Of a stretch of 64,000 nucleotides of DNA, positions 21,994 through 60,939 are shown piece after piece. Within the stretch, counting starts at the first letter, position 1. The number at the start of each line of letters is the position of its first letter. The notes under the pieces are model-generated. The model was given only the letters and a program-made list of their open reading frames with translations. It was not told the DNA's origin and made no database searches. Source of the DNA: Candidatus Kerfeldbacteria bacterium RIFCSPLOWO2_02_FULL_42_19 (GTDB taxonomy: Bacteria; Patescibacteriota; Patescibacteriia; HO2-48-17); NCBI GenBank assembly GCA_001818315.1, contig MHKF01000018.1, forward strand, positions 64,325-128,324, written 5' to 3'. Position numbers and translations under genes: made by a program.

Positions 21994-24147
21994 TTATGGC
22001 AAAAATGGCACGGGGTTAATGGGTATGCCGTTTTCACGAAGTTCAAAATGTAAGTGCGGGCCAGTACTAAACCGACCTGCCCCTGGAGTTCCTGGGGTTC
22101 CGCCGCTTCGACCGATGATTTCCCCTTTTCGCACAAGCCTTCCTGTTTCGAGTTTTTCATATACCGAGGATTCGATCGCGCTTAGGTGTCCGTACACCGT
22201 TGCATATCCATCGCCGTGCACAAGCATGATATACGTATACCCGGTAGCGCCGCCGTCTTTTGCTATTGCGACATATCCGCTTGCAGCAGCGCTCACCTTT
22301 GTTCCTTGCGGTGTTGCGATATCCATACCCGAATGTTTGAAATACCGCCGGAAAGGATAATCTGCGCAGTCAAATCCACACGTAATCTCTCTACCCGCTA
22401 TTGGCCAGGAAAGTGCGAGCGGACCTCCGAAATCACTGTCGTCTTCCAGGAGCGGATCTTCATCCCCTTCTCCTTCTCCATCTTTTTTCTTTTTCTCCTC
22501 CTCAATTTTTGCTATGCGCTCACGCACTTGTTGTTCGATTGCCCGCATTTCACTGTCGGTACTGAGTTGTTCTTTTCTCACCTCTTCGACAAGCCCTTGG
22601 AATTTTTCTTCATCAAGCGCTGTTTGAGTGAGGATGTCTGCTTTTACTTTCTTTTCCCCTTGCAGTTCTTCATGCCTGATCGTGAGTGAATTTTTCATCT
22701 GCACAACATCCGATTTTTTTCTTTCAACACTTATTTTTTTTTCTTCGAGTTCGCGTTTTATATTTTTAATATTTTCGAGTGTGTTTTTTGTTTCTTTCTC
22801 CAGTTCTTCTAAATACGTAATTTCTGTAAAAAAGTCAGAGAATGATTCGTGGAGAAGCAGCACTTCAAGATAGGTTGTATCCTCTTTCACATACAACGTA
22901 CGGAGTGTTTCAGCGAGATATTTTTTCTGTAACTGTATTTCCTCAGTTTTTTGAAGAATTTTTTGTTGGAGTTCTTCAATTTCTAGTTCCAGGAGTTCGA
23001 TTTCCTTTTCTTTTATTTCAATTTCTTTCTCGGTTTTTTGAATCGACGTATCAATGACATCGAGTTGACTTTTGAGTGTAAGCTGCTCTTGTTGTTTGAT
23101 TTCGATTGTTTTATTCAGTTGATCAATTTTCTCTTCTATCAATTCTATTTCTTCCACCGTTTCCTCAAGCTTTGCATTCAAGTCTTGCAGCACTTCGTCT
23201 TCTTCGGAAGTATCATCTTCTGTTTGCGCTGGCAAATCTTCCTCACTGGTTTCTTGATTCGTATTTGTTTCGGTTTCATCTTGTGCTTGTATGCTGTGAG
23301 CCGAGAGAGTTTGTTGTGACAAGAACCATACGCTCGCAATAACCCCCGCAAGAAGCATTTTTTTTGTGCTTGTTATTTTGGATTTTTTGGATCGCTGTAA
23401 CTTTTCTTTACAAACGAGGTACGGAAAAATAATCACAGCATTGTAGATACGTTTGAAACGTTTTGGTTCCAGTGAAAATCGCCAGAGCCATTCAATTCCG
23501 ATTTTTCTCATCCAGAGCGGTGCTCGAGGGAATACGCCCGTGAAATAATCAAAAGTCCCCCCTACTCCGATAAATATTGATGCATTTTTCAAAATGTTTC
23601 TTGCGTGATTGATCCAATATTCTTGTTTCGGCGATCCGAGCGCGACGAACACAAGATCTGGTGCATACGTGTTCATCATTTGAAAGAGGTTGTCTTCGGG
23701 AGCTCTGTCGGTTATGTCGGGCGTACGGCTTTCGTAAATTTTAAAATTGAGATTTGGAAATTTTTCTCTGAGTGATTTTGTGAGGGTTTCTTTTGAAGAT
23801 AGACTTACTATCGGGAGCACGATGCCAATTTTTTGTTCAGTGCCCTTCAGTTTTTCCATCAGCGCTAAAACAATATCCGCTCCGATCACCCGTGTGTGAA
23901 TTTTTCCAAACGAAGCGAGAATGAGGCCAGTACCATCCGGGAGTAAGATATCGGCCTTTCGGAGAATCTGATGGAATCGCGCATTTTTGTTCGCGCGAAC
24001 TAAAAATTCTGGACCCGGCGTAAAGACACTTGTTTGAGTCCTTTTTTGCAGACGATCGAGGATATATTTGAGAGCTTCAGCCTGCGTAATATTCGCTATT
24101 GGAATACCAAGAATTTCGATTTTTTGCATGGTTGAAGTATAACACAT
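21994..24147 (-). CDS. Fusion protein: WecB/TagA/CpsF (GT26) glycosyltransferase - TM - coiled coil - M23 (LytM) peptidase
   Basis: aa 7-250 align to WecB/TagA family (ILGIPIANIT...LLPDGTGL...VALGSPKQEYWI...). Internal Met at 23358 starts a signal-peptide/TM-like segment MLLAGVIASVWFLSQQTLSAHS. There follows a ~250-aa E/K-rich coiled coil, then an M23 domain (HSGMDIA..G..V.A...G.V..A......GY...L.H..GY.T.Y.HL......G..GTPG..G.STGPHLHFE). No stop codon between the parts. Confidence 0.7.
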   Translation of the reverse strand: MCYTSTMQKIEILGIPIANITQAEALKYILDRLQKRTQTSVFTPGPEFLVRANKNARFHQILRKADILLPDGTGLILASFGKIHTRVIGADIVLALMEKLKGTEQKIGIVLPIVSLSSKETLTKSLREKFPNLNFKIYESRTPDITDRAPEDNLFQMMNTYAPDLVFVALGSPKQEYWINHARNILKNASIFIGVGGTFDYFTGVFPRAPLWMRKIGIEWLWRFSLEPKRFKRIYNAVIIFPYLVCKEKLQRSKKSKITSTKKMLLAGVIASVWFLSQQTLSAHSIQAQDETETNTNQETSEEDLPAQTEDDTSEEDEVLQDLNAKLEETVEEIELIEEKIDQLNKTIEIKQQEQLTLKSQLDVIDTSIQKTEKEIEIKEKEIELLELEIEELQQKILQKTEEIQLQKKYLAETLRTLYVKEDTTYLEVLLLHESFSDFFTEITYLEELEKETKNTLENIKNIKRELEEKKISVERKKSDVVQMKNSLTIRHEELQGEKKVKADILTQTALDEEKFQGLVEEVRKEQLSTDSEMRAIEQQVRERIAKIEEEKKKKDGEGEGDEDPLLEDDSDFGGPLALSWPIAGREITCGFDCADYPFRRYFKHSGMDIATPQGTKVSAAASGYVAIAKDGGATGYTYIMLVHGDGYATVYGHLSAIESSVYEKLETGRLVRKGEIIGRSGGTPGTPGAGRFSTGPHLHFELRENGIPINPVPFLP

Positions 24148-24199
24148 TTTCTGTTATTCTATAATGAGAGCGCTTGATGACTTTTGTATGCTTATTTGA

Positions 24200-25612
24200 A
24201 TGATTTTTACTCATTACACGAAAATTTTTTTTTGGTTCTTCACTCTGATTTTACTTCTCTTTGTATTTGTGTCAAATGTTTCGAAAGCTGCGAGTCCGCC
24301 AAATTTTATTATTTCCGATGTTGATCTTGTTGATGCTGATGCTTTATCTCTTTCAAGAATCCAACAGTTTCTCCACGAGCGCGGCACACTTGGTACCTAT
24401 ACTACCGAAGTGGATGACATTCAAAAAAGCGCTGCACAAATTATTTTTGACATAGCTCAGGAATATCAAATAAATCCCAAGTATATTATCACCCGTATTC
24501 AAGTGGAGCAGAGCTTGATTACCGATCCGAATCCAACGCAGTATCAATTTGATTGGGCAACAGGGTATGGACGTTGTGATACGTGCACACCTGAACAAGC
24601 GGAAAAGTATAAAGGTTTTGCGCTTCAAGTCCGTTGGTCGGCAAAGCGTGTTCGCGAAAGTTACCTTTTTGATCTTGAAACGAAGGGACATACACTTACC
24701 GGTTGGGGACCCGGTATTACAAAAGAAACTCTAGATGGAGTAAAAGTTACACCTGTGAATAATGCTACTGCGGTGTTGTATACGTATACTCCATGGGCAG
24801 GTGAATGCTTTGGCGGCGCGCCAAATGTTGGTGGCAATTGTTCCTTTCATAGAATTTTTACATCGTGGTTTTCTTTGCAATATCCTGATGGAACTTTGTT
24901 GCAGGGTGAAAATGGCGGTATTTATTTGATTCGTGGAGGAGAGAAACGGCCTTTTCTCAATCGCGCCGCATTTGCGCCATATGACGTTCGGAAAGTTTTA
25001 CCTGTAACCGAAAGTGTTCTCGCTGCTTTTCCCACCGGAAAACCTATCGCCTATCCTCCATACGTACTCTTGAGATCGCCTCACGGTACTGTGTATCTCT
25101 ATAATGAAGGTACGATTCGTGGGATTGAATCTTCCGAGGTATTACGCAATTTAGGTTTTAATCCAGAAGAAATTCTGTCCGTTTCCTGGAATGAGCTTCA
25201 CGATCTTACTGAAGATCGTCCTATCACTATGCAAGATATTTATCCAGCCGGTGCGTTACTCCAATATCAGGATTCTGGCGGGGTTGTGTATATTGATCCT
25301 AGTGGCGTTCGTCATGATATTATGAATCGTGAAATATTGCGTTCGAATTTTCATCGGCCTGTGATTATTCAGAAACCGCGTGAATACATTGATCAATTTA
25401 CCAAAGGGGAAAAATTGGGTTTTCGTGATGGCGAACTTGTGACATATTCGGAGTCACGCGCTGTATATCTGATTTCCAATCGCACGCGAAGACGTTTTGC
25501 TTCTGGTGAAGTTTTTACCTCTCTTCATTTTCGTTGGGATAATATTATTACTACGACGAAAGAAGCCGTTGAACTTCACCCTGAAGGTCCCGTACTAAAA
25601 CTTGATTTCTAA
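24200..25612 (+). CDS. Secreted hypothetical protein with four C-terminal ~50-aa tandem repeats
   Basis: Signal peptide (FFWFFTLILLLFVFVSNVSKAAS); repeats of the pattern G.VYLI..G.R..I.S.EVL.SLGF; divergently transcribed from the GT26-M23 fusion gene. Confidence 0.5.
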   Translation: MIFTHYTKIFFWFFTLILLLFVFVSNVSKAASPPNFIISDVDLVDADALSLSRIQQFLHERGTLGTYTTEVDDIQKSAAQIIFDIAQEYQINPKYIITRIQVEQSLITDPNPTQYQFDWATGYGRCDTCTPEQAEKYKGFALQVRWSAKRVRESYLFDLETKGHTLTGWGPGITKETLDGVKVTPVNNATAVLYTYTPWAGECFGGAPNVGGNCSFHRIFTSWFSLQYPDGTLLQGENGGIYLIRGGEKRPFLNRAAFAPYDVRKVLPVTESVLAAFPTGKPIAYPPYVLLRSPHGTVYLYNEGTIRGIESSEVLRNLGFNPEEILSVSWNELHDLTEDRPITMQDIYPAGALLQYQDSGGVVYIDPSGVRHDIMNREILRSNFHRPVIIQKPREYIDQFTKGEKLGFRDGELVTYSESRAVYLISNRTRRRFASGEVFTSLHFRWDNIITTTKEAVELHPEGPVLKLDF

Positions 25613-33166: not shown

Positions 33167-34423
33167 TTATTCGTAGCGCAGTGCTTCTATGGGGTGTTTT
33201 CGAGCAGCTTTTGATGCTGGCATAATACCGAAAATAATGCCGGTTGCTACGGAAATACCGAATGCAATAATAAAACTTTTCCAAGAAACTATCGTCGGTA
33301 TGTTCGCGAATTTTTGAATGAGTATTCCCCCGCCAATAGCACAAAGAATGCCAATAATACCCCCGACGATACTTAATGTTGAGGCTTCGGTTAAGAATTG
33401 AACGAGAATATTTCCATTGGTGGCGCCTATAGCTTTTCTGAGTCCAATTTCTTTTGTTCTTTCGGTGACAGAAACGAGCATAATATTCATAATGCCGATA
33501 CCACCAACAATAAGTGATATTGCCGCGATGCTGAGCACTGCTTGTGTGAGTATCGAAAAGAAGCTGTTAAAAACATTCAGAACATCTTCTTGTGTCAGGA
33601 CAGAAAAATCTTCTACATCTTTATGATTTGCTTTTACAACTTCTCGGATGCGGTTTTTCGCATTTTCGACCTCTTCCGCGCTTTTGATCTTGTTGAGGAT
33701 ACGATATACGACATCCTCTCCAGTTATTTCTTTTGCCACCGATCGTGGAGTCACAATCACATCATTCGCATCTGAACTTCCAAAATTCAGAGCCTCTTCT
33801 CGTATTTTTAGGACACCTGTAATCAGAAAATCTTCTCCCAGAAGTGTAAGTTTTTTTCCGATCAGTTCTTGCGCGATTTCTTGATCCGTCTGCTCACCTT
33901 CCTCACTATTTTGAATAATTTTTTTTGCCGCGCCGCCACCGAGCACTACGACGCGTTGCTTTTCCTCAAATTCTTGTTGAGTGAAGTATTCCCCTGCTGC
34001 GAGTTCGTTTTCCACAATTTCAAAATACGTTGGTGATGTGCTCATGGGCAGAAGATTCAGTATCTCATGATCATCGTACTTGGGTGTTGCTGAAAGCAGC
34101 GTCATCGGAGCGTTCTTTTCTACAAGATCGACTTCCTCCAGAATTTTTTCTGCGTCACTTTCGGTGAGTGTGCTGACACCAAATGACGCCGAAGGATTGA
34201 AATTCCCACTTTCGATATCTATTTTTCCAGGAGTCACCACAACAATATTGGAGCCAAGTTCTTGTATTTGTTGTCCAAATTCTTTTTTAAGGCCATCCCC
34301 AATTGCCATGAGAATGCTTACCGAAAATACTCCAATAATAACGCCGAGCATTGTCAGTAATGACCTGACTTTGCTATTAAAAAGCGCGGTGAAGGCAAAT
34401 TTAATATTCTCTATGAAAAGCAT
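33167..34423 (-). CDS. ABC transporter permease, MacB/FtsX-like
   Basis: N-terminal TM, large periplasmic MacB-like domain, C-terminal FtsX 3-TM bundle (GIGIMNIMLVSVTERTKEIGLRKAIGA). Confidence 0.8.
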   Translation of the reverse strand: MLFIENIKFAFTALFNSKVRSLLTMLGVIIGVFSVSILMAIGDGLKKEFGQQIQELGSNIVVVTPGKIDIESGNFNPSASFGVSTLTESDAEKILEEVDLVEKNAPMTLLSATPKYDDHEILNLLPMSTSPTYFEIVENELAAGEYFTQQEFEEKQRVVVLGGGAAKKIIQNSEEGEQTDQEIAQELIGKKLTLLGEDFLITGVLKIREEALNFGSSDANDVIVTPRSVAKEITGEDVVYRILNKIKSAEEVENAKNRIREVVKANHKDVEDFSVLTQEDVLNVFNSFFSILTQAVLSIAAISLIVGGIGIMNIMLVSVTERTKEIGLRKAIGATNGNILVQFLTEASTLSIVGGIIGILCAIGGGILIQKFANIPTIVSWKSFIIAFGISVATGIIFGIMPASKAARKHPIEALRYE

Positions 34424-34435
34424 ATATCGATTTAC

Positions 34436-35113
34436 TTAACTGCGAACAATTTTTCCATCTTTCAGACATATAATTCTTTCTGCTTCTTTTGCAATTTCCG
34501 CATCATGTGTAACAACGATTATTGTTCGCCCTTCTTTTTGCAGCTGTTTAAAAATTTTCATAATTTCTTTTCCAGAGTGACTGTCTAAATTTCCTGTTGG
34601 TTCATCGGCAAGAATAAGTGTCGGATTGTTTGTGAGAGCGCGAGCAATGGCAACGCGTTGTTTTTCGCCACCGGATAATTCATTCGGTTTGTGCTTCATG
34701 CGTTCTCCTAAGCCCACCTGTTCAAGGAGTTGTTTCGCACGTTCTTTGGCTGTTCCACGCGGTTGTCTGCCGTAAATCGCCGGAAGCAAAACATTTTTGA
34801 AAGCAGAAAGTCTTGGAAGTAAATTAAAAGTTTGAAACACAAAGCCGATTGTTTTAAGACGAATGCGTGCCATTTCTTTCGAGTTCAAATCTGCGATATT
34901 ATGATCGTCAATAACAATTTCACCACTTTCTGGTTTATCAAGTAAACCGATGACGTGCAAGAGACTTGATTTACCAGAACCTGATGGACCCATAATCGCT
35001 ACGAATTCCCCTTTGTTGATGTTGATATTAATATTTTTTAACGCTTCCACGTTATTTTGTTTTGTGAGTCTGTATGTTTTTGATACGTTTTTGAGTTTCA
35101 GGATCTCGCTCAT
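34436..35113 (-). CDS. ABC transporter ATP-binding protein (MacB/LolD-type)
   Basis: Walker [10 protein letters not shown], signature [15 protein letters not shown], Walker [12 protein letters not shown]. Confidence 0.9.
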
Positions 35114-35134
35114 AATTTTTGGTTCCTACCTTTC

Positions 35135-36274
35135 TTATTCAAACGTAACACTTCTATCTTCTGGTACAATTTGAATCCATGTTGCGCCTCTGCGTAAATC
35201 AATATCCTTCTTTTCTGCCGTCAGAAATTTCATACGATCTTCGCGATTTTCTTTTTTCCATGTTCCGATAATGACTTCTCCATCTCGTGCCACAGAGACC
35301 TTCCCCTCCCCGTGTATGTCGAGAGTTAATCGTCCTTTTTCGCCTACAGCAAGTATTTTTGGAATCGTAATAATAATAACATTTTTTGCACGGATTTGCT
35401 GATTGTTATTCCTATCCATATGAGGTCTGCTGGCATTGAAACGCAGATATTCTTTTGTCGTTTCATCGAATTGATATTCAACTTGATAGGAAATACCAGA
35501 GGAGTAATTAATAGTTATTTTTTTTGCGTTTTGCGTGTCTGTATTTTGTTTTTTTTCACTGGAATCTTGAAAATTCCAAGTTACATATTCAGGTACTGCA
35601 TCCCAAAAATTTCGATCGTGAAGCGCCCGTTGTAAGAGTTCGCTTGAGGTAAAAAGATTATGCGGTGCAGGTGTTCCTTTTTCTCGCCAAAAATATGGAG
35701 CTGATCCTCGAATTTGATTGAGGTCATTGATGTGATCACTATCAATCATTTGCAATGCTTCTGGGCTGCCTCCTGCATGAGCAAGGAGTGCTCCACCTTT
35801 TCCGTATTCTTGTGCCCATTCGACATAATATGGCCTCACGGAGCGCACCGGTCCAATTTTTGGAATATTTTCAATTTGCGGATCAAAGAGCGCTAAAAAA
35901 CGAGTAATCCCTCCTTCGACCAAGGATTCATAGACGACGGCTGCCTGACTGAGGCCGGCTTGCGGGCGTACGGTAATCAGATTTTCGATCATCACTGCTA
36001 CTGGCCAATTGTTAGTTTCTTTTGTGTCAACAGTACGTCCATCAAGTTTTCTGGCGGTAGTCGTTGGAATCTCTTTCGTTGTATTATTATTTTTTTGCGC
36101 GGATTTTCCTGTATTCTTTGCTGTTTTTTGTGCTATAAATTGCGTTATCGGGTTTTTGACTAAGGCATAACTAATGGTGCTCCACGCAAAAAACATTCCA
36201 ACAATAAGCAGCACTATAATAATACCGTATTCAAAGAACTTTGGATGGAGTTTTTGTATTTTTTCCAAAAGCAT
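35135..36274 (-). CDS. DUF3048 (YerB-like) domain protein, paralog 1
   Basis: WPVAVMIENLITVRPQAGLSQAAVVYESLVEGGITRFLALF...GPVRSVRPYYVEWAQEYG core shared with the next gene. Confidence 0.6.
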   Translation of the reverse strand: MLLEKIQKLHPKFFEYGIIIVLLIVGMFFAWSTISYALVKNPITQFIAQKTAKNTGKSAQKNNNTTKEIPTTTARKLDGRTVDTKETNNWPVAVMIENLITVRPQAGLSQAAVVYESLVEGGITRFLALFDPQIENIPKIGPVRSVRPYYVEWAQEYGKGGALLAHAGGSPEALQMIDSDHINDLNQIRGSAPYFWREKGTPAPHNLFTSSELLQRALHDRNFWDAVPEYVTWNFQDSSEKKQNTDTQNAKKITINYSSGISYQVEYQFDETTKEYLRFNASRPHMDRNNNQQIRAKNVIIITIPKILAVGEKGRLTLDIHGEGKVSVARDGEVIIGTWKKENREDRMKFLTAEKKDIDLRRGATWIQIVPEDRSVTFE

Positions 36275-36280
36275 ACAAGT

Positions 36281-37363
36281 TTATTTTTGAGTGTATAAAA
36301 CGTCACGATCTGGTGGGATAACCTCTATCCATACCGATCCTGGGTTTAGAGCGATGGATTTGCCGGTCGTATCATAAAAGTAGGTACGTTGTTTTGTGGC
36401 ACTATGTTCCCAGCGGCCTTCAATTTTTTTGCCGTCGAGAAATACAAAAGCATCACCGGCGCCTTCAGTTTGTATTCCGAGTAAACCCGAGCGCGGATCG
36501 ACGAGATTTGTTTGTGCGCGTTGGACGATAATATTTTTGACCTGCAGTTGTTCACCTGAATTTTTATCGAGATGAGCCTTTCCCCCGTTCGAACGTGCAT
36601 ATGCATTGGTTTCAGGATTATATATGTAGCGAACTTCATAATTATAGGTAGAAAAATCGAGCACGATTTCCTTTTTATTTTTTGTACGTATCGGTTCTTC
36701 TGTTTTGATTTGCCATGCTTCAAATGCATCGTTTTCTGGTGGTGTTACTTTGTTGTCTTGCGCGGCAATAGCCAACAATTCGCTTGAGGTAAAAAGATTA
36801 TGCGGCGGAAAACTTTCTTTCGTGCGCCAAAAATAAGCCTGATCTCCACCGATTTGATCTATATCAATAATGCCATTTGTCTGTAATATATTTAACGCTT
36901 CGAGACTTCCGCCTGCATGAGCAAATATTCCACCATATTCTTGCGTCCATTCTATAAAATAAGGACGAGCGGATCGTATAGGCCCGATTGTTTTTATTGG
37001 CGTTTCGAAAGTCTTGTATACAGCAAGAAATCGTGTAATTCCACCTTCAACGAGTGCTTCGTATACAACATCTGCTTCCTGCAAACCTGATTGCGGTCGA
37101 ATATCCACAAGGTTTTCTATTACAGCAGTATAGGGTATTGCTGTTTTACTTGTTTGAGTCGTTTCATTTGTTTCTATTGTATTGGTATTTATAATCTCTA
37201 CAGCTTTTGTGTTTTCAAGTGTTGCATCGTTCTTTCGAAAAATAAAAAAACCCACAAGGATCACAATGAGTATAAGAAAAACTATCAGAAAAATAATTGC
37301 GCTTGTTGTGTTTTCTTTTATTTTCCACCAGGCCTGCTTGAAGATATGCAGGAGTTTATTCAT
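36281..37363 (-). CDS. DUF3048 (YerB-like) domain protein, paralog 2
   Basis: VIENLVDIRPQSGLQEADVVYEALVEGGITRFLAVY...GPIRSARPYFIEWTQEYG; tandem paralog of 35135..36274. Confidence 0.6.
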   Translation of the reverse strand: MNKLLHIFKQAWWKIKENTTSAIIFLIVFLILIVILVGFFIFRKNDATLENTKAVEIINTNTIETNETTQTSKTAIPYTAVIENLVDIRPQSGLQEADVVYEALVEGGITRFLAVYKTFETPIKTIGPIRSARPYFIEWTQEYGGIFAHAGGSLEALNILQTNGIIDIDQIGGDQAYFWRTKESFPPHNLFTSSELLAIAAQDNKVTPPENDAFEAWQIKTEEPIRTKNKKEIVLDFSTYNYEVRYIYNPETNAYARSNGGKAHLDKNSGEQLQVKNIIVQRAQTNLVDPRSGLLGIQTEGAGDAFVFLDGKKIEGRWEHSATKQRTYFYDTTGKSIALNPGSVWIEVIPPDRDVLYTQK

Positions 37364-38420: not shown

Positions 38421-39524
38421 TCAAACTTGCTTTTTGTGTCGAATGATAATGGATTGAATCAGGCCTATGAGTAAAAGATTTGCTACTAGAGAACTTCCAC
38501 CAGCGCTTATGAAGGGCAGTGGAATTCCAGTTATTGGCATAATGCCGATATTCATTCCTACATTGATAAACATCTGCACACCTAACAAGAGTACCGATAG
38601 GAGGAGTATCCACCTACCAAAAGTATCTTTCAATTTTACGATATATCGAAAGAGACTGAAAAAAAGCAATAAAAATCCGCTTAATACGACGCTTGCACCG
38701 ACAAAACCCAGCTCTTCTGCTATGACTGCGAATATAAAGTCTGTTTCTTTTTCTGGTAAAAATTTTAACTGACTTTGTGGGCCCAGACCCAATCCTCTTC
38801 CGAGGAGTTTTCCAGAGCCGACTGAAATCATGGATTGAATAACATTGTAACCTTTCCCTAAAGCATCTTTTTGCGGATTGAGCAAGAGTATGATGCGATT
38901 TTGCTGATAATCCTCTAAAAAAAACCAGGTGATAAACGGTATGATGCAGAGCAAGAGAATAATGATCAGACGCGCTTTGAATTCAATACGTATAAAAAGA
39001 AATGCAAGAGTCCAAACTATAACGAAAAGTGCAGCCGATCCAAAATCCGGTTGGAGTAATACAAGTGCTGTATAAAGGAGGGTGATGAGACCGCTGCCGA
39101 GTAGAGCTTTGAACGGTGTGTCGTTCCCGTATTTGGTGATCCAGGCCGCGAGATTGAGGATAAACATTATTTTTGCGATTTCCACCGGTTGGAATATAAA
39201 CCACTTGAGGTCAATCCATCCTGTTGTTCCGTGAATCGTTGTGCCGAATAATAAAACTAATATGAGTATGAGCACTCCCAGGAGCAAGATCACCCACGAC
39301 AGATGATACCACATACGATAATCAAGTCGTGATGCTATCAACACACATACTATTCCTATGCCTAGGGCAATCAATTGTGTTTTGAATTTTGCAATTGTGG
39401 GTACTTCGGCGTGCAGGCCGATGCTATAGATAGTCGCGAGGCTTAAGAGTATGAGGAGTACTATGCATAAAAGTGTTCGACGATCCCACGCTTTTAAAAA
39501 TGCAATATACTGTCGCCAACTCAT
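38421..39524 (-). CDS. SEDS-family peptidoglycan glycosyltransferase (RodA/FtsW)
   Basis: 10-TM topology, C-terminal PLPFISAGGSSL motif characteristic of FtsW/RodA/SpoVE. Confidence 0.85.
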   Translation of the reverse strand: MSWRQYIAFLKAWDRRTLLCIVLLILLSLATIYSIGLHAEVPTIAKFKTQLIALGIGIVCVLIASRLDYRMWYHLSWVILLLGVLILILVLLFGTTIHGTTGWIDLKWFIFQPVEIAKIMFILNLAAWITKYGNDTPFKALLGSGLITLLYTALVLLQPDFGSAALFVIVWTLAFLFIRIEFKARLIIILLLCIIPFITWFFLEDYQQNRIILLLNPQKDALGKGYNVIQSMISVGSGKLLGRGLGLGPQSQLKFLPEKETDFIFAVIAEELGFVGASVVLSGFLLLFFSLFRYIVKLKDTFGRWILLLSVLLLGVQMFINVGMNIGIMPITGIPLPFISAGGSSLVANLLLIGLIQSIIIRHKKQV

Positions 39525-52910: not shown

Positions 52911-54404
52911 TTAGGCAAGTTTTTTGCGTAAAATATCCGTTACTGTTTGTGGATTTGCTTTCCCTTTTGTCTTTTTCATGACTTTCCCTACAAGAAACAT
53001 CAGCGCTTGTTTTTTCCCTCGCTGATAATCCTGTACAACTTGCGTTTCCTCTTGTAGGACTTCTTGTACCGATTGTTCGAGTACGAGTGTATCACTGACT
53101 TGCTCTAAGTTTTTTTCCGCCATGCACTGCGATGGATCAATGCCGGTTCGAAACATTTCTGCGAGAATGACTTGTCCTGCACTGGAATTTAATTTTCGTT
53201 CATAGAGGAGCGTAATAAATTCAGCAAAATTTTCTGGTGTCATTTTACTTTGTCCAATGCCGATATGCGCAGCGTTCGTAAGCCTGAGAATTTCCGAAAG
53301 CAACCAGCCGAGAACAAGTTTTGTTATTTTTTTCCGATTCGCATTCCAAATTTCGGTATCGCTTCCTTCCGTCGTATCCAGTGAGTCAAGCCAAGATCGT
53401 AATTCGCTTATTGTTTTTTCAAAAAATTCACTTAATTCAGGAGTTTCGATCAATACCTGAACATCTCGTTCCGAAATATCATATTCTTCCATCAAGCGTT
53501 TGCGCCGTTCTTGTGGCATTTCCGGAATTTCAAGTTGCACACGTTCGATCACTTCGTTGGTTATAAGGAGCGGCGGAATATCGGGTTCCGGAAAATAACG
53601 ATAATCCTGCACCGCTTCTTTATTGCGCAGACTGTACGTTTCTCCAATCTCATCATTCCATCCTCGCGTTTCGCGCAAGATAGTTTCACCTTGTTCAAGT
53701 ATTTTTTTCTGTCTTTGGATTTCAAACTTTATTGCTTGCTCCAATGAACGAAATGAATTCAAATTTTTTATTTCAACTCGCGTGCCCAAAGGTTTGCCTT
53801 TTGTATGCACTGAAACGTTTGTATCAAAACGAAGTTGACCCTTCTTCATATTTCCATCAGTCACTTCCGCATAAATCAGTCGTAAACGTAATTCTTGCAC
53901 AAAGAGTTTTGCCTCGTGTGCAGAATGTATTTCTGGTTTGCTGACGATTTCAATAAGTGGCGTTCCAGCGCGGTTTAAATCCATGAGCGTACCTGTTTTG
54001 GCGTGGATAAGCTGCGCTGTATCTTCTTCCATGTGAACGCGTTCCAGATGAATCACTTTTTCTTTACTTTCGTTGCTGATCCTTATGCTGCCACCAAGCG
54101 CAAGCGGCTCATCGTACTGTGAAATTTGATAACCTTTTGGAAGATCGGGGTAAAAATAATGCTTGCGATCAAATTTACACGTTGGCTGTATATGAGCATT
54201 GAGCGCACACGCCGCTCGCATCGCTTTTTGAAGGGCCTCTTGATTAAGCACCGGCAAAGTCCCGGGATGCCCAAGACAAATAGGACATACGTGTGTATTC
54301 GGTACATCTTCATCTGCGTTTTTGGAACCGCAGAACATTTTGGATTGTGTTTTGAGTTGTACGTGAATTTCGATGCCGATGACAGGCTCAAAATTTTTTT
54401 TCAT
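52911..54404 (-). CDS. gatB: Asp-tRNA(Asn)/Glu-tRNA(Gln) amidotransferase subunit B
   Basis: VIGIEIHVQL...CPICLGHPGTLPVLN N-terminus diagnostic of GatB. Confidence 0.9.
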   Translation of the reverse strand: MKKNFEPVIGIEIHVQLKTQSKMFCGSKNADEDVPNTHVCPICLGHPGTLPVLNQEALQKAMRAACALNAHIQPTCKFDRKHYFYPDLPKGYQISQYDEPLALGGSIRISNESKEKVIHLERVHMEEDTAQLIHAKTGTLMDLNRAGTPLIEIVSKPEIHSAHEAKLFVQELRLRLIYAEVTDGNMKKGQLRFDTNVSVHTKGKPLGTRVEIKNLNSFRSLEQAIKFEIQRQKKILEQGETILRETRGWNDEIGETYSLRNKEAVQDYRYFPEPDIPPLLITNEVIERVQLEIPEMPQERRKRLMEEYDISERDVQVLIETPELSEFFEKTISELRSWLDSLDTTEGSDTEIWNANRKKITKLVLGWLLSEILRLTNAAHIGIGQSKMTPENFAEFITLLYERKLNSSAGQVILAEMFRTGIDPSQCMAEKNLEQVSDTLVLEQSVQEVLQEETQVVQDYQRGKKQALMFLVGKVMKKTKGKANPQTVTDILRKKLA

Positions 54405-56417: not shown

Positions 56418-56855
56418 TTATTTTTCTACAACAGTAAGTCCCATCTGTCTTGCCGTACCTTCGATCATTCGCGCGGCTGCGTTTATATCGTTTGTGTTCA
56501 AATCAGGGAGTTTTATGGCTGCTATTTCTCGTAGTTGTGTTTTCGTGATTGTTCCAACTTTCTGTGTTAGTGGATTTCCAGCACCTTTTTCAATCCCAGC
56601 TGCTTTCTTTAAAAGGTCTGAAGCTGGAGGTGTTTTGAGAATAAAATCATACGTGCGATCTTCATAAACCGTCATTTCTACTGGAATGATGTTTCCTTGT
56701 TTGTCCCGTGTTTTTTCATTGAATTTTTGGCAAAATTCCTGAATGTTCAATCCGTGTTGGCCAATCGCTGGCCCAATCGGCGGCGCTGGTGTTGCTTTGC
56801 CGGCAGGAATTTGTAACTTTACTACTGTTTTAATTTTCTTCGTCTTTTTTGCCAT
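56418..56855 (-). CDS. rplK: 50S ribosomal protein L11
   Basis: [27 protein letters not shown]. Confidence 0.95.
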
Positions 56856-56858
56856 ACA

Positions 56859-57404
56859 TTAAATTTTACGAATTTGCAATGAATCAAGTTCCACAGGGGT
56901 TTCGCGACCGAAAATAGATATGAGTACTTTCACTTTCCCGCGCCCTTCATCAACTTCGGCAATTTTTCCTTCCATAGTTTTGAAGGGGCCATCTGTAATT
57001 CTCACAGAATCACCGACACCGACTTCGATTTTATACTTCGGTTCTTCAATGCCCATTCGGCGTTGTAATTCCTTTACTTCATCGATTGAAATTGGCGTTG
57101 GAGTTGTGCCAGAACCTACAAAGCCAGTAACATTTGGCGTGTTCCGAACAACGTACCAAGAATTATCATCCACGATCATTTCGACCAGGACATATCCCGG
57201 AAAAAGTTTTTCCGTCACGACCTTTCTCTTTCCGTTTTTAATCTTAATGCGTTTTTCGGTCGGAATAAGAATATTAAAAATTTTATCTTCCATATCCATG
57301 GATTCGGTGCGTTGACGAAGGTTGTGCGCGACATTTTCTTCATACCCGGAATAGGTATGGAGCACATACCATCGTTTTCCTTGTTTTGATAATTGTTTTG
57401 GCAT
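56859..57404 (-). CDS. nusG: Transcription termination/antitermination factor NusG
   Basis: NGN domain (WYVLHTYSGYE), KOW (GD.V.I.DGPFK...G). Confidence 0.9.
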   Translation of the reverse strand: MPKQLSKQGKRWYVLHTYSGYEENVAHNLRQRTESMDMEDKIFNILIPTEKRIKIKNGKRKVVTEKLFPGYVLVEMIVDDNSWYVVRNTPNVTGFVGSGTTPTPISIDEVKELQRRMGIEEPKYKIEVGVGDSVRITDGPFKTMEGKIAEVDEGRGKVKVLISIFGRETPVELDSLQIRKI

Positions 57405-57413
57405 AGAACCGAT

Positions 57414-57611
57414 TTAGAGTATTTTTTTGAGAAGTGTTGCAAAGATATAATCCATTGTACCGAGGAAGACCGCAACGATTGCACTGGCTCCAATCACAAT
57501 AAGTGATTGTCGAATTGTCTCCTGACGCGAGGGCCAATCGACTTTGCGTAATTCACTGTAGGAATCTTTAAGGTATTGGATAAGATGGAGTGTCCTTTTG
57601 TCGCTTTCCAT
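57414..57611 (-). CDS. secE: Preprotein translocase subunit SecE
   Basis: Single C-terminal TM (LIVIGASAIVAVFLGTMDYIF) preceded by ELRKVDWPSRQE; likely start at internal ATG 57611. Confidence 0.8.
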   Translation of the reverse strand: MESDKRTLHLIQYLKDSYSELRKVDWPSRQETIRQSLIVIGASAIVAVFLGTMDYIFATLLKKIL

Positions 57612-58059
57612 TATTTCTATCTTAAAAAGACCCTTGTTTCGGGTCAAATCAATCATTATTTATACTCTATCGTATTTTACTCATCCGCGCAAGTGCAAAA
57701 ATTTTTCTTCACACAGTCTAGACTTCATGCGTTGTATGAAGGGACTGTTGCCGAATACACTTTTGCCTGCAAAAATTACAGTGGACTTTTTACATGTTTC
57801 AATGCCGGATTGCTCACATGCGTATAGCGTTGCGTTGTCTTGATGTTGTTGTGTCCGAGCAACTCCTGGATATAACGAATATCTACCCCGTTTTCGAGGA
57901 GATGAGTCGCAAAGCTGTGCCGGAGTGAATGGAACGATGCTTGTTTTCGAATACCCGCACGCTTCAGCGCCTGATAAAATACTGCCTGAGCCGTACGAGA
58001 CGAAAGAGATCCACCGCGTTGACTTCTAAAGAGAAGATCGCGTGAGGTTGCAAAAGATT

Positions 58060-59080
58060 AGACCTGTTGCGTATTAAATATGGTATCATAAAGACAGAGT
58101 AGAAATTAAAACAACATAAAATATGAATCTTTCTAGAATTTTTCAGAATCCTCGGCAGTTAAAAGCATTAACCGGAGCATCGAAAGAAGAGTTCGATGAT
58201 CTGCTTCCAGTATTTGAGTCTTGCCTCAAGAGATTAAAGAAAGATCACAGTACTGCACAGAAAAGAAGGTTTGGTGGCGGTCCCAAAGGCAAACTTCCTA
58301 CGGTTGAACTCAAATTATTTTTCATCCTTATGTATGTCAAAGTATATCCCACCTTTGATGTTTTAGGTTTCCTCGTAGATTTTGATCGCTCAAGAGCCTG
58401 CAGGAACACTCATTTCCTCTTCACGGCACTGGAAAAATCCTTAGGGAGAAAGATTGTCTTACCCGAACGAAAAATTCGCTCAGTAGAGGCACTCTTTCAA
58501 AAGTTTCCTGATCTTAAGGATGTATTCGTTGATGGGCTGGAACGACCAGTCCAGCGACCAAAAAAGCAAAAACAACAACGAAAACTCTATTCGGGTAAAA
58601 AGAAAACCCACACCAAGAAGAGTGTGGTGGTGGTCGATGAAAAGAGACGCATCTTGTTGCTCACAAAAACCAAGTCAGGCAGGAGGCATGACAAGCGTTT
58701 GGCTGACAAACAAGCCTTGTTTGAATGGATTCCGGAATCGATTACCGTCTGGGTGGATACGGGTTTTCAAGGGATACGCAAACAACATACCAATACGATG
58801 ATCCCCAAGAAAGCAACCAAGGGACACCCCTTAACCTACCAAGAAAAACAAGAGAACAAAACAATTTCTGGTTTACGTGTGGTGGTAGAGCATGCTATTG
58901 GAGGTATAAGACGGTTCAGAAGCATTGCTGATATCTATCGGAATAGAAAAGCTTTTATGGAAGACAGATTTCTCAGAGTCGCCGCTGGACTCTGGAACTT
59001 ACATCTGAATCATACAACATAATCTCACAGGGAATGTGGAAATATATTGTTTGATTCTGATATTAATACGCAACAGGTCT
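58060..59080 (+). mobile_element. IS element (IS4/IS5-superfamily-like, single DDE transposase), ~1.02 kb, 18-bp perfect terminal inverted repeats, 3-bp ATT target duplication
   Basis: IRL AGACCTGTTGCGTATTAA (58060-58077) and IRR TTAATACGCAACAGGTCT (59063-59080) are exact reverse complements; flanked by ATT on both sides. Confidence 0.85.
58123..59022 (+). CDS. DDE transposase of the IS element
   Basis: YSGKKKTHTKKSVVVVDE...VDTGFQG...VEHAIGGIRRFRSIADIYRN pattern typical of IS5-family/Harbinger-like DDE transposases. Confidence 0.75.
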   Translation: MNLSRIFQNPRQLKALTGASKEEFDDLLPVFESCLKRLKKDHSTAQKRRFGGGPKGKLPTVELKLFFILMYVKVYPTFDVLGFLVDFDRSRACRNTHFLFTALEKSLGRKIVLPERKIRSVEALFQKFPDLKDVFVDGLERPVQRPKKQKQQRKLYSGKKKTHTKKSVVVVDEKRRILLLTKTKSGRRHDKRLADKQALFEWIPESITVWVDTGFQGIRKQHTNTMIPKKATKGHPLTYQEKQENKTISGLRVVVEHAIGGIRRFRSIADIYRNRKAFMEDRFLRVAAGLWNLHLNHTT

Positions 59081-59642
59081 ATTGAGAAGTGATGAGAGTA
59101 CGAAGATCTTGTATAAAATTTTTAGAGATGACTGTGAGTCGATCTTTGTTTCCTTTTCCATTACGAATGAATAGGAGAAGATTGTTCAGATCAATATCGC
59201 TCATACGAAGGCGGACTACCTCGCTTACGCGCAAACCCGAACCATATGTGAGCGCCAGTAATACTCGGTGTTTCAGATTGGCAGTACAAGCAATCATACG
59301 TCGAATTTCATCGCGTGTGAGAATAACGGGTAGTTTCCATGCACGTTTAGGATAATGAATATGAGTAAGCGGCGGGAGGTGATACAAATTGATTCGCGCG
59401 AAATTGATGGCGTGAATGTAAAGAGCGATGGTTTGACTCGAACGTCCTTTCTGGAGTTGATCTTGGATAAAGAATTTCATTTCATCCTCACCGATTTTGT
59501 TTATGCGCATTCGAAAGAATGTGTAGAGATTCCACAATGCACGGCTATAAGCGCTATAGGTTCGATAACTGTAATTTCGAACTTGTATTTCGCGTTTGAG
59601 TATTTCTAATAAACTTGGCATAATAAAAATGGGTGAATCCAC

Positions 59643-59736
59643 AAAGGTAGCAATCGAGAGGATTACCCATCAATACAGATATCATACCCCTTTCGCCCAC
59701 ATTCCGCAATTTTATGCGTATAAGCACTAGTTAGGC
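59643..59736 (+). other. Putative attI region with GTTAGGC core site (59730-59736)
   Basis: Canonical integron core 7-mer GTTAGGC lies 31 nt upstream of the first cassette ORF and ~90 nt from the divergent recombinase start. Its reverse complement GCCTAAC is the first 7-mer of the attC-like site after cassette 1. Confidence 0.6.
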
Positions 59737-59767
59737 GAAATGCGACTTAACAATTAAGCGTTTAAGT

Positions 59768-60196: not shown

Positions 60197-60322
60197 CACG
60201 CAGTATGCGGCTACAGTTTGCTCCGTTTCACTCCGAAAACTTCCGCCCATATTCACTGGTTGTACCGTACTTCGTGCGATATTATACAGCCAGTGAACAT
60301 CGCATACTGCGGAACGTTGTGC
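60191..60322 (+). other. attC-like site 1 (132 bp imperfect palindrome, GCCTAAC ... GTTGTGC)
   Basis: Outer IR cgcagtatgcg/cgcatactgcg, inner IR tattcactggttgta/tacagccagtgaaca; ~85% identical to site 5. Confidence 0.7.
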
Positions 60323-60351
60323 GAAATAATTCGCCTTAGTATACTGCCAAC

Positions 60352-60744: not shown

Positions 60745-60761
60745 AGACGGCGAATTACATC

Positions 60762-60896: not shown

Positions 60897-60939
60897 GCTG
60901 TGCCGCGCTTTTGATAAACTCAATGTGAATCGTTAAAGT

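What the first reader, a model, noticed from the sequence alone, without database searches (positions are those of the whole stretch)
21994..24147. Single ORF fusing a cytoplasmic WecB/TagA (GT26) glycosyltransferase to a TM segment, a long coiled coil and an M23 peptidase domain
The 717-aa ORF has no stop between a complete GT26 domain (aa ~7-250) and what looks like a complete EnvC/NlpD-like protein (signal-peptide-like MLLAGVIASVWFLSQQTLSAHS, a 250-aa E/K-rich coiled coil, LytM domain with HxxxD...HxH metal ligands). As a fusion, the signal peptide would act as a TM anchor, placing the wall-glycopolymer glycosyltransferase inside the cell and the peptidoglycan hydrolase or activator outside. 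That would be a direct physical coupling of wall-polymer synthesis to PG remodelling that I do not recall being described. Alternatively these are two genes and the intervening stop has been lost or a sequencing error is present.
Basis: partly seen in the sequence, partly recalled or inferred. Interest (0 to 1): 0.6.

Follow-up and report, generated by a model that had tools for sequence, protein, structure and literature searches.

The report
One-species glycosyltransferase–wall hydrolase gene fusion
In one uncultured groundwater bacterium, loss of the glutamyl-tRNA synthetase gene that normally sits between two cell-wall genes has joined them into a single real reading frame, but the join looks like a tolerated accident and not a conserved new machine.

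Summary
A minus-strand ORF (21994..24147; probable start at 24129, 711 aa) joins three parts without a stop: a complete TagA/WecG-type GT26 glycosyltransferase, a signal-peptide-like segment, and an EnvC-shaped coiled-coil M23 endopeptidase with intact zinc ligands.

It is not a sequencing error. The gene is base-identical in at least four independent assemblies.

It is also not a conserved architecture. A scan of 1.84 billion representative proteins found no other protein listed with both halves. In 70 related Patescibacteria loci the halves are never adjacent. They belong to a conserved cluster, GT26→(NUDIX)→gltX→M23. The two closest relatives share the window's flanks exactly but keep gltX between the two genes. 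The fusion therefore arose when gltX was removed.

The "TM segment" is the M23 protein's own signal peptide. It has a cationic n-region, a 14-residue core and a peptidase-type site. Its hydrophobicity is well below transmembrane grade.

My best reading, which is inferred, is that the precursor is exported and probably cleaved, so both enzymes end up where they work in relatives. Lasting physical coupling is possible but unsupported.

Verdict: a new variant of known kinds, of modest interest.

The parts
21994..24129 (-). Fused gene, 711 codons plus stop (stop codon at 21994-21996). The maximal ORF extends to 24147 (717 aa).
   Evidence: The start at 24129 (MQKIE) matches orthologue N-termini and P0001. 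The gene is identical in 4 independent assemblies.
23383..24129 (-). Complete GT26 (WecB/TagA/CpsF, GT-E) glycosyltransferase, residues 1-249, including the C-terminal membrane-binding/catalytic appendage.
   Evidence: PF03808 at 136.9 bits. T. italicus TagA 7MPK, E 1.2e-32, residues 1-229 aligned to 1-226. T37, D65 and R217/R224/R227 correspond to TagA T37, D65 and R214/R221/R224. Stand-alone orthologues end at the position of residue ~249.
23359..23382 (-). Junction, residues 250-257 (SKITSTKK). Probably the cationic n-region of the former M23 signal peptide, now acting as the linker.
   Evidence: Alignment A3. L095/L096 have an in-frame upstream ATG giving MGQENFIKTKHRQR-MYTLTLF. The hydrophobic core of orthologues starts at a median of residue 8.
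23284..23358 (-). Internal signal-peptide-like segment, residues 258-282. It comprises Met258, the h-region MLLAGVIASVWFLS, and a c-region with candidate signal-peptidase I sites S279|I280 and A282|Q283.
   Evidence: It is the only hydrophobic segment in the protein. KD19 is 1.32 and Hessa dG about +5.2 kcal/mol. AF2 models it as a helix with pLDDT 74-89. The upstream 25 nt are 76% A+T, more than 99.5% of internal in-frame ATGs.
23212..23283 (-). Acidic, disordered linker, residues 283-306.
   Evidence: AF2 pLDDT is below 50 for residues 279-306. The sequence is D/E/T-rich.
22480..23208 (-). EnvC/PcsB-like antiparallel coiled coil, residues 308-550.
   Evidence: AF2 helices 308-416 and 430-550 have pLDDT 84-98. 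PF24568 CC_PcsB match. Foldseek top hits are EnvC in FtsEX-EnvC complexes, 8TZL_E and 6TPI_A, with about 400 aligned columns. phmmer aligns residues 44-427 of the 428-aa C-terminal-half query (window 21997-23280, i.e. residues 327-710 of the 711-aa protein) to EnvC 6TPI residues 6-384.
21997..22404 (-). M23/LytM metallopeptidase domain, residues ~576-711, with the complete zinc and catalytic motifs H599xxxD603, H648 and H692xH694.
   Evidence: PF01551 at 84.8 bits. Motifs confirmed. H599, D603, H648 and H694 are nearly invariant in alignment A4. AF2 pLDDT is above 90. PDB M23 hits.
24130..24199 (.). 70-bp divergent intergenic region shared with the conserved 470-aa secreted-protein gene (24200-25612, plus strand). 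It presumably holds the promoter and translation start region of the fusion gene.
   Evidence: The same divergent arrangement occurs in L095 and L097. The promoter scan was not informative.

Best explanation
**What it is**
This is a real, lineage-specific in-frame gene fusion in a Candidatus Kerfeldbacteria (Patescibacteria) population.

**Origin (shown)**
- The ancestral locus carried the phylum-wide cluster GT26 -> gltX -> coiled-coil M23.
- In this lineage gltX was removed from between the two genes.
- The 3' end of the complete GT26 gene was joined in frame to the signal-peptide n-region of the M23 gene.

**How it works (inferred)**
- A 711-aa precursor is translated.
- The GT26 half folds in the cytoplasm. 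Its C-terminal appendage sits at the inner face of the membrane, as in TagA and WecG.
- The strongly cationic linker (RSKKSKITSTKK) and the short hydrophobic core that follows act as an internal Sec signal with N-in/C-out orientation, so the coiled-coil M23 half is exported.
- The segment is signal-peptide grade and keeps a (-3,-1) signal-peptidase motif before an acidic stretch, as the stand-alone orthologues do. It is therefore probably cleaved.
- Cleavage would release an EnvC-shaped but catalytically competent M23 endopeptidase outside the cell. It would leave GT26 with a short hydrophobic C-terminal tail.

**Consequence**
Both enzymes would end up where they work in unfused relatives. That would explain why the fusion is tolerated and why neither half shows accelerated divergence. 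The main new property would be obligatory 1:1 co-expression, and co-localisation at the moment of insertion.
For: **Reality of the ORF**
- ORF and domains.
- Identical junction in 4 independent assemblies and 19 contigs.

**Uniqueness**
- Only this protein's own cluster spans both halves among the best 150 hits from 1.84e9 representatives. A second fusion with comparable similarity would have scored at the top.
- Only P0001 carries PF03808 among the 120 best M23 homologues.

**Origin**
- L095/L096 and L097 (M23 54-55% identical) have the same flanks: fmt<-def<-priA<-Memo<-464aa | GT26->gltX->M23 ... FtsQ-like, SerRS, GreA, PBP2, MreDCB, M50. Both keep gltX between the two genes.
- Of 70 loci, 58 have gltX directly upstream of M23 and 53 have GT26 upstream. 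The minimum GT26-M23 distance is 1,554 nt.
- There is no gltX in the 64-kb window. gatB is present, so a GluRS is still required.

**Completeness of both halves**
- GT26 ends where stand-alone orthologues end.
- TagA catalytic residues T37, D65 and R214/R221/R224 are conserved.
- The M23 zinc motifs are intact.
- Relative-rate ratio is 0.98 for each half, against 0.68-1.07 for eleven neighbouring genes.

**Signal-peptide nature of the junction segment**
- KD19 is 1.32 and the h-core is 14 residues.
- Hessa dG is about +5.2 kcal/mol, and 210 of 247 orthologues carry SPase-like motifs.
- The n-region is homologous to the extended L095 N-terminus.

**Topological compatibility**
- The C-terminal helices of TagA and WecG bind the membrane (PMC6493773 and PMC9804384).
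Against: - Export and cleavage of an internal signal peptide placed 257 residues from the N-terminus were not tested here. No signal-peptide or topology predictor was available.
- The c-region is rather long, 9-12 residues from the end of the h-core to the candidate sites.
- The weak hydrophobicity could mean inefficient export of the full-length chain.
- The AF2 model of the GT26 half has low confidence because its alignment had only 7 sequences. Correct folding of that half in the fusion context is therefore not shown.
- The age of the fusion is unknown, because no relative closer than about 55% identity was found. Normal rates in both halves could simply reflect a recent event.
- The new location of gltX could not be found.
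Confidence: 0.5

Rival explanations
1. Stable bitopic fusion enzyme. The hydrophobic segment stays uncleaved as a signal anchor. One polypeptide then holds a cytoplasmic GT26 and an extracellular coiled-coil M23 endopeptidase. This would physically couple synthesis of the wall-glycopolymer linkage unit to peptidoglycan cleavage, possibly at an FtsEX-type site.
For: - The frame is continuous and both halves are intact.
- Charges follow the positive-inside rule, with +6 before the segment and an acidic stretch after it.
- AF2 models residues 222-276 as one helix that includes the h-region.
- The two genes are co-clustered across the phylum, which suggests a functional link that a fusion would make explicit.
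- A different fusion in the same cluster, GT26-NUDIX (P0007), shows that fusions here can persist.
Against: - The segment is not TM grade. KD19 is 1.32, below the classical ~1.6 threshold, and additive Hessa dG is about +5.2 kcal/mol. It is weaker than 94-98% of orthologue N-terminal segments, so there has been no adaptation toward an anchor.
- Signal-peptidase-type motifs are retained.
- The architecture is found in only one species-level lineage among about 15 billion proteins.
Confidence: 0.2
2. One ORF gives two products through internal initiation. Ribosomes also start at Met258, producing the coiled-coil M23 pre-protein separately. The full-length chain would then serve mainly as the GT26 enzyme, with a possibly unexported tail.
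For: - The genome hardly uses Shine-Dalgarno sites. Only 5% of 37 gene starts show one, so initiation depends on A/U-rich, unstructured leaders.
- The 25 nt before Met258 are 76% A+T and 68% A. That is above 99.5% of 221 internal in-frame ATGs and above the median of true starts.
- Met258 aligns with the annotated start of the closest orthologue, P0024.
Against: - A product starting at Met258 would lack the cationic n-region, because all the lysines lie upstream of it.
- In L095/L096 the better start is an upstream ATG that includes such an n-region. Met258 is therefore probably not the ancestral start.
- The A-richness is also explained simply by a run of lysine AAA codons.
- Local structure is intermediate. 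MFE is -8.5 kcal/mol, against a median of -6.3 for true starts.
Confidence: 0.2
3. Sequencing or assembly artefact. The two genes are really separate, and a homopolymer indel or misassembly created the open frame. For example, one fewer A in the A6 run would give TAA 14 nt before the ATG.
For: - The junction lies in A6 and A8 homopolymer runs.
- A 1-nt deletion in the A6 run would restore a stop just before Met258 (read directly).
- A chimeric version of this same locus, P0002, exists in a public collection.
Against: - The gene is base-for-base identical in four independently assembled samples whose flanks differ by 0-5 SNPs, and it occurs on 19 contigs.
- The sources include different pipelines (NCBI, JGI and ENA, the latter two shown).
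- An indel would not explain the absence of the 1.45-kb gltX gene that lies between these genes in all relatives.
Confidence: 0.03
4. Recent deleterious or neutral lesion. The fusion has disabled one half, for example an M23 that cannot be exported or a GT26 whose essential C-terminal appendage is disturbed. The function would be covered by another gene elsewhere in the genome.
For: - It is a singleton architecture with no sign of adaptation of the junction.
Against: - Neither half shows rate acceleration or loss of motifs.
- The population carrying the fusion was recovered from several samples.
- No second GT26 or coiled-coil M23 copy exists in the 64-kb window, though the rest of the genome was not examined.
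Confidence: 0.07

Closest known systems
TagA/TarA and WecG (GT26, GT-E fold; PDB 5WB4, 7MPK)
   Same: - Residues 1-229 align end to end with T. italicus TagA, E 1.2e-32.
- Catalytic T37 and D65 and the appendage arginines are conserved.
- The C-terminal three-helix membrane-binding appendage is present.
   Different: - TagA and WecG are stand-alone peripheral membrane proteins of about 245 aa. Here the appendage continues into an internal signal peptide and an exported hydrolase.
- The NCBIfam TarA equivalog score is 119 against a cut-off of 350, so the specific substrate is unassigned.
- No wall teichoic acid is known in Patescibacteria (my own knowledge).
EnvC, the FtsEX-bound coiled-coil LytM factor (PDB 6TPI, 8TZL, 8HD0)
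   Same: - Same overall architecture: signal peptide, long antiparallel coiled coil, then a C-terminal LytM domain.
- Best Foldseek hits, with about 400 aligned columns, and an end-to-end phmmer alignment.
   Different: - EnvC has a degenerate active site and activates amidases. This protein keeps HxxxD, HxH and the catalytic His, so it is probably an endopeptidase itself.
- The EnvC equivalog score is 51 against a cut-off of 270.
- No FtsEX was found among the window ORFs scanned, only a MacB-type ABC pair; a few ORFs (notably 56418-63910) were not scanned.
- No EnvC is known to be fused to a cytoplasmic enzyme.
Stand-alone coiled-coil M23 proteins of Patescibacteria (P0024, P0173, P0003-P0005; annotated 'peptidoglycan DD-metalloendopeptidase family protein')
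   Same: - True orthologues of the C-terminal half, 36-55% identical over the whole mature protein.
- Same gene neighbourhood.
   Different: All are 400-450 aa with their own N-terminal signal peptide. They are separated from GT26 by gltX and are never fused to it.
PcsB, CwlO and RipC: FtsEX-regulated coiled-coil hydrolases of monoderm bacteria
   Same: - A coiled-coil N-terminal module followed by a C-terminal PG hydrolase domain.
- A weak PF24568 CC_PcsB match, 28.9 bits against a cut-off of 27.
- PcsB 4CGK appears among the Foldseek hits.
   Different: - The catalytic domain is M23, not CHAP or NlpC/P60.
- The PcsB equivalog score is 16 against a cut-off of 450.
Other GT26 fusions: O-antigen-ligase-like membrane domain + GT26 (P0017, P0018), GT26-STAS (P0012), GT26-NUDIX (P0007), tandem GT26-GT26 (P0104, P0126, P0152)
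   Same: They show that GT26 tolerates fusion at either end, including to integral membrane domains and to its own cluster neighbour NUDIX.
   Different: None has an extracytoplasmic hydrolase, and none has M23.
Bitopic proteins with a large N-terminal cytoplasmic enzyme and an extracellular wall-binding part, for example PknB/PASTA kinases (my own knowledge)
   Different: Those proteins have true ~20-residue TM helices and are conserved architectures. Here the segment is signal-peptide grade and the architecture is a singleton.

Membership tests
GT26 WecB/TagA/CpsF glycosyltransferase (GT-E) | Match to PF03808 / TIGR00696 above the curated cut-off | tested here: met
   PF03808 scores 136.9 bits against a cut-off of 27.4. 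TIGR00696 scores 116.8 against 69.
GT26 WecB/TagA/CpsF glycosyltransferase (GT-E) | Catalytic Thr37 and Asp65 (TagA numbering) | tested here: met
   T37 (TPGPE) and D65 (PDG) align with TagA T37 and D65. Their roles are described in PMC6493773.
GT26 WecB/TagA/CpsF glycosyltransferase (GT-E) | C-terminal appendage with Arg214/Arg221/Arg224 and membrane-binding helices | tested here: met
   R217, R224 and R227 align with these arginines and are invariant in alignment A3.
GT26 WecB/TagA/CpsF glycosyltransferase (GT-E) | GT-E fold in a structural model | tested here: inconclusive
   AF2 pLDDT is 30-55 over most of residues 1-250, because only 7 GT26 sequences were allowed in the alignment.
TarA/TagA proper (UDP-ManNAc:lipid-alpha transferase, equivalog) | Equivalog-level score and substrate specificity | tested here: not met
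   NF041710 scores 119 bits against a cut-off of 350. Enzymatic specificity cannot be tested with these tools.
Peptidase M23 (active LytM-type endopeptidase) | PF01551 above the cut-off, plus the HxxxD and HxH zinc/catalytic motifs | tested here: met
   84.8 bits against a cut-off of 28.7. HSGMD599 and HLH692 are present. H599, D603, H648 and H694 are at least 90% conserved in alignment A4.
EnvC-type murein hydrolase activator | Antiparallel coiled coil followed by a LytM domain | tested here: met
   AF2 helices 308-416 and 430-550 plus the M23 domain. Best Foldseek hits are 8TZL_E and 6TPI_A. Residues 44-427 of the 428-aa C-terminal-half query (327-710 of the 711-aa protein) align with EnvC 6-384.
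EnvC-type murein hydrolase activator | Degenerate (non-catalytic) LytM site, and an equivalog-level score | tested here: not met
   The metal ligands are intact. NF008644 scores 51 bits against a cut-off of 270.
EnvC-type murein hydrolase activator | A cognate FtsEX partner | tested here: inconclusive
   No FtsE/FtsX was found among the ~50 window ORFs scanned (a few, notably 56418-63910, were not). Only a MacB_PCD+FtsX-domain permease with its ABC ATPase is present at 33167-35113. The rest of the genome was not seen.
PcsB | CC_PcsB coiled coil plus a CHAP domain | tested here: not met
   PF24568 only just passes, at 28.9 bits against 27. There is no CHAP domain, and NF046104 scores 16 against 450.
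Bitopic (single-pass) membrane protein | A TM-grade hydrophobic segment of about 19-20 residues | tested here: not met
   The best 19-mer has KD 1.32 and additive Hessa dG of +5.2 kcal/mol. No other hydrophobic segment exists in the protein. No dedicated predictor (DeepTMHMM) was available.
Sec (type I) signal peptide | Cationic n-region, 7-15-residue h-region, and a c-region with small residues at -3 and -1 | tested here: met
   The sequence reads RSKKSKITSTKK / MLLAGVIASVWFLS / QQTLSAHS|IQA|QDE. The same layout occurs in 210 of 247 orthologues. This was judged by rule, not by SignalP.
Sec (type I) signal peptide | Location at the N-terminus of the translated chain | tested here: not met
   The segment starts at residue 258 of 711, unless translation also starts at Met258.

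The most novel reading that the evidence does not exclude
The fusion acts as a 'Rosetta stone' for a real functional partnership. In Patescibacteria, the GT26 enzyme that starts a lipid-linked wall glycopolymer and the EnvC-shaped active M23 endopeptidase would work at the same membrane site. This would explain why they have stayed in one cluster across the phylum. In this Kerfeldbacteria lineage the partnership would have become a single bitopic polypeptide that couples glycopolymer initiation inside the cell to peptidoglycan cleavage outside it.
Probability: 0.15. Interest if true: 0.65.

Novelty: new variant of a known kind. Interest (0 to 1): 0.3.

Why it matters
If the chain stays in one piece, it would be the first known case of a cytoplasmic wall-glycopolymer glycosyltransferase tethered covalently to an extracellular peptidoglycan hydrolase. 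It would also offer a way into envelope biogenesis in uncultured Patescibacteria.

On the more likely reading, the value is smaller but real, in three ways:
- It is a clean, datable example of how excision of one gene from a compact operon creates a topologically legal fusion. The C-terminus of a membrane-facing enzyme is joined to the n-region of the next gene's signal peptide.
- It is a natural test of whether an internal signal peptide can still export and release a hydrolase.
- It draws attention to an undescribed, phylum-wide cluster, GT26-(NUDIX)-gltX-M23, whose conservation is unexplained.

For annotation, it shows the ORF should be kept as a fusion and not "repaired". It also shows that P0002, the representative of this protein's cluster in the 50%-identity representative library, is a chimeric artefact.

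Tried and rejected
1. **P0002 as a second fused relative: rejected.** P0002 (710 aa, 83% identical, both Pfam domains) looked independent at first. Its C-terminal 170 aa are the translation of the opposite strand of this same locus (window ORF 22186..22689), and it has an internal coiled-coil deletion. It is a fold-back chimera of the same organism.

2. **Metagenome scan for the closest relative's locus: no result.** The scan with A2 seeded on low-complexity coiled-coil words and returned only distant hits. The locus was recovered instead through a homology search with P0024 followed by contig look-ups.

3. **Search for this organism's relocated gltX: unresolved.** A homology search with the L095 GluRS returned thousands of Patescibacteria GluRS at about 50% identity. 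None could be attributed to this MAG. That gltX persists is inferred only from gatB in the window.

4. **Shine-Dalgarno test of the internal ATG: uninformative.** This genome is essentially SD-less. My first offset for the ATG was also wrong and was corrected.

5. **Promoter and terminator scan of the locus: no signal.** Results were at background level.

6. **Microhomology-mediated deletion: weak lead only.** A-rich words of 8-9 nt flank gltX in L095 and L097. Such matches are expected by chance in this composition, and the L095 pair would not join in frame.

7. **AF2 model of the GT26 half: low confidence.** Only 7 permitted GT26 sequences were in the alignment, so GT26 membership rests on sequence evidence.

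8. **Literature search: nothing found.** Two literature searches were run; one targeted this fusion and found no prior description, the other retrieved the TagA/WecG papers. The cluster was not searched for specifically.

9. **One Pfam batch failed.** One search failed on a bad coordinate and was not repeated, because it was not needed.


Full report
**1.

The window has an uninterrupted minus-strand ORF at 21994..24147 (717 aa).

Pfam places three domains, all above the curated cut-offs:
- Glyco_tran_WecG at aa 65-235 (E 7.8e-40).
- CC_PcsB at aa 400-470.
- Peptidase_M23 at aa 604-712 (E 4.7e-24).

NCBIfam gives only family-level matches. TarA, EnvC, MepM and PcsB all score far below their equivalog cut-offs.

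The public annotation (P0001, 'Candidatus Kerfeldbacteria bacterium RIFCSPHIGHO2_02_FULL...') and the orthologue N-termini put the start at the second ATG, MQKIEILGI. That gives 711 aa at 21994..24129. I use 711-aa numbering below.

**2. It is not a sequencing or assembly error.**

The junction lies in A6 and A8 runs.

However, the exact protein is on 19 contigs. In four independently assembled samples (three ENA, one JGI) the whole gene is base-for-base identical, while the flanks differ by 0, 1, 5 and 1 SNPs.

An apparent second fused protein, P0002, is a fold-back chimera of this same locus. Its C-terminal part is the translation of the opposite strand. It does not count as independent evidence.

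**3. The architecture is a singleton.**

- A phmmer scan of all 1.84 billion cluster representatives returned thousands of stand-alone coiled-coil M23 proteins (400-450 aa) and stand-alone or tandem GT26 proteins. Only this protein's own cluster covered both halves.
- Among the 120 best homologues of the nearest M23 relative, only P0001 carries PF03808.
- Other long GT26 proteins are fused to O-antigen-ligase-like membrane domains, STAS, NUDIX or a second GT26. None is fused to M23.

**4. Where it came from.**

In 70 Patescibacteria loci with at least 3.5 kb upstream of the M23 orthologue:
- 58 have gltX (GluRS) directly upstream on the same strand.
- 53 have GT26 further upstream on the same strand.
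- 25 have a NUDIX gene between GT26 and gltX.
- The smallest GT26-M23 distance is 1,554 nt. None is adjacent or fused.

The two closest relatives are P0024 on L095/L096 and P0173 on L097 (54-55% identity in M23). L095 comes from the same sample as one of the fused contigs. They share the window's gene order on both sides:

fmt<-def<-priA<-Memo<-464-aa gene | GT26(246/238 aa)->gltX(485/481)->M23(428/444) ... FtsQ-like, SerRS, GreA, PBP2, MreD, MreC, MreB, M50.

The window is collinear with them, except that gltX is missing and its two neighbours are joined in frame.

Details of the junction:
- In the relatives the GT26 stop overlaps the gltX start by 4-8 nt. gltX ends 8-83 nt before the M23 start.
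- Stand-alone GT26 proteins end at the position of residue ~249 here, '...PYLVCKEKLQRSKK'. The GT26 half is therefore complete.
- The next eight residues (SKITSTKK) resemble the cationic n-region of the M23 signal peptide. In L095/L096 an in-frame ATG 42 nt upstream of the annotated start gives MGQENFIKTKHRQR-MYTLTLFVCAS.... Met258 of the fusion aligns with the second Met.

gltX is absent from the 64-kb window. gatB is present, so the organism still needs a GluRS. I infer that gltX moved elsewhere, though I could not locate it.

**5. State of the two halves.**

GT26 half:
- Residues 1-229 align end to end with T. italicus TagA (7MPK, E 1.2e-32).
- T37, D65 and R217/R224/R227 match TagA's T37, D65 and R214/R221/R224.
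- These are the catalytic base, the sugar-orienting Thr, and the arginines supplied by the C-terminal appendage. That appendage also tethers TagA and WecG to the membrane (PMC6493773, PMC9804384).

M23 half:
- HSGMD599, H648 and HLH692-694 are present and conserved across orthologues.
- AF2 models it with high confidence: helices 308-416 and 430-550 with pLDDT 84-98, and the M23 domain above 90.
- The best structural matches are full-length EnvC in FtsEX-EnvC complexes (8TZL_E at 1.3e-13, 6TPI_A at 1.7e-11), followed by active M23 enzymes (sequence level).
- It therefore has EnvC's shape but a catalytically competent site.

Rates:
- A relative-rate comparison with L095 and L097 gives 0.98 for each half, within the 0.68-1.07 range of eleven neighbouring genes.
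- Neither half shows accelerated divergence.

**6. The 'TM segment'.**

- It is the only hydrophobic stretch in the protein.
- Its core is 14 residues (MLLAGVIASVWFLS).
- The best 19-residue Kyte-Doolittle mean is 1.32, below 97.6% of 247 orthologue N-terminal segments (median 2.21).
- A simple additive Hessa dG is +5.2 kcal/mol, worse than 94% of orthologues (median +0.5).
- It is preceded by six positive charges. It is followed by QQTLSAHS|IQA|QDE, which has small residues at -3 and -1 before an acidic stretch. The same layout occurs in 210 of 247 orthologues.
- AF2 makes it helical and leaves residues 279-306 disordered.

By these rule-based criteria it is a Sec signal peptide that has become internal. 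It has not evolved into an anchor.

**7. Mechanism.**

Shown:
- The fusion is real.
- It is unique to one lineage.
- It was produced by removal of gltX from a conserved cluster.
- Both halves are intact.

Inferred:
- The GT26 C-terminus already sits at the inner membrane face, and the following n-region obeys the positive-inside rule. The join is therefore topologically legal.
- The internal signal would export the coiled-coil M23 half. Signal peptidase would probably release it, leaving GT26 with a short hydrophobic tail.
- This is the most economical explanation for why the fusion is tolerated.

I give about 0.9 to the origin and about 0.4-0.5 to the processing step. The combined figure is 0.5.

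Rivals:
- **Stable bitopic enzyme (0.2).** It is favoured by the phylum-wide co-clustering and disfavoured by the weak hydrophobicity.
- **Additional internal initiation at Met258 (0.2).** The genome is essentially Shine-Dalgarno-free, and the 25 nt upstream of Met258 are more A/T-rich than 99.5% of internal ATGs. However, such a product would lack its n-region.
- **A disabled half (0.07).**
- **An artefact (0.03).**

**8. Comparison with the known.**

The N-terminal half is a GT26/GT-E family member. Membership features are met except the fold, which was inconclusive. It cannot be called TarA or WecG.

The C-terminal half is an active M23 peptidase with EnvC-like architecture. It is not EnvC, because the degenerate-site and equivalog criteria are not met. 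It is not PcsB, because there is no CHAP domain.

The fusion itself has no counterpart.

**9. Verdict.**

This is a new variant of known kinds: a unique but single-lineage domain fusion with a clear evolutionary origin.

Interest is modest (0.3). The most novel reading not excluded is a true physical coupling of glycopolymer initiation and peptidoglycan cleavage, reflecting a functional partnership behind the conserved cluster. I rate that at about 0.15 probability.

Noticed in passing
L005, L009, L010-L089, L095-L097 (for example L009:2186-6196 and L095:7727-11287): A phylum-wide, same-strand cluster GT26 -> (NUDIX) -> gltX -> coiled-coil M23 occurs in Patescibacteria. Of 70 loci, 58 have gltX directly upstream of M23, 53 have GT26 upstream and 25 have NUDIX. 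Why a tRNA synthetase is kept between two envelope genes is unexplained, and I did not find it described.
   Followed up: partly
P0007 (401 aa): A different fusion inside the same cluster in another Patescibacterium: GT26 fused to its downstream NUDIX neighbour. Neighbour fusions in this cluster are therefore recurrent.
   Followed up: no
P0002, compared with window 22186-22689 (+) and 21994-24147 (-): The protein that represents this cluster in the 50%-identity library is a chimeric fold-back artefact. It consists of the N-terminal part of the fusion with an internal coiled-coil deletion, followed by the translation of the opposite strand of the same locus.
   Followed up: yes
window, 37 gene starts: The genome hardly uses Shine-Dalgarno sites. 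Only 5% of gene starts pair with the anti-SD at -4 kcal/mol or better, fewer than the 13% seen for random ATGs. True starts are instead marked by A/T-rich, weakly structured leaders.
   Followed up: partly
window 52911-54404 (-): gatB is present, so Gln-tRNA is made by transamidation and a GluRS is required. Yet gltX is missing from its conserved position and from the whole 64-kb window.
   Followed up: partly
L098:53-1075 and L098:2678-3034: In the third-closest relative (P0174 locus), a partial duplicate of the gltX 3' end (GluRS residues 373-481) and several small ORFs lie between gltX and M23. The gltX-M23 boundary is therefore rearrangement-prone in another lineage as well.
   Followed up: partly
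L095:9959-10001 and L096:6770-6812: The annotated start of the closest M23 orthologue (P0024) is probably 14 codons too short. An in-frame upstream ATG adds MGQENFIKTKHRQR, which gives the signal peptide a normal cationic n-region.
   Followed up: yes
L095:8446 / 9975 and L097:8536 / 9982: A-rich words of 8-9 nt (TCATAAAAA, GCAAAAAA) occur both at the GT26 3' end and just upstream of M23, flanking gltX. They are a possible microhomology substrate for the deletion, but matches like this are expected by chance in this composition.
   Followed up: partly
window 33167-37363 (-): A MacB-type ABC pair (MacB_PCD+FtsX-domain permease and its ATPase) lies next to two tandem DUF3048 paralogues, in a neighbourhood otherwise made up of envelope genes (RodA/FtsW at 38421-39524).
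   Followed up: no
P0104, P0126, P0152, P0164, P0169: Tandem GT26-GT26 proteins of about 480-500 aa are among the best GT26 hits. They are another recurrent GT26 architecture.
   Followed up: no
window 24200-25612 (+), L095:6266-7660, L097:6381-7775: A conserved 464-470-aa secreted protein with no Pfam match is transcribed divergently from GT26 in all three related genomes (45-54% identity).
   Followed up: no
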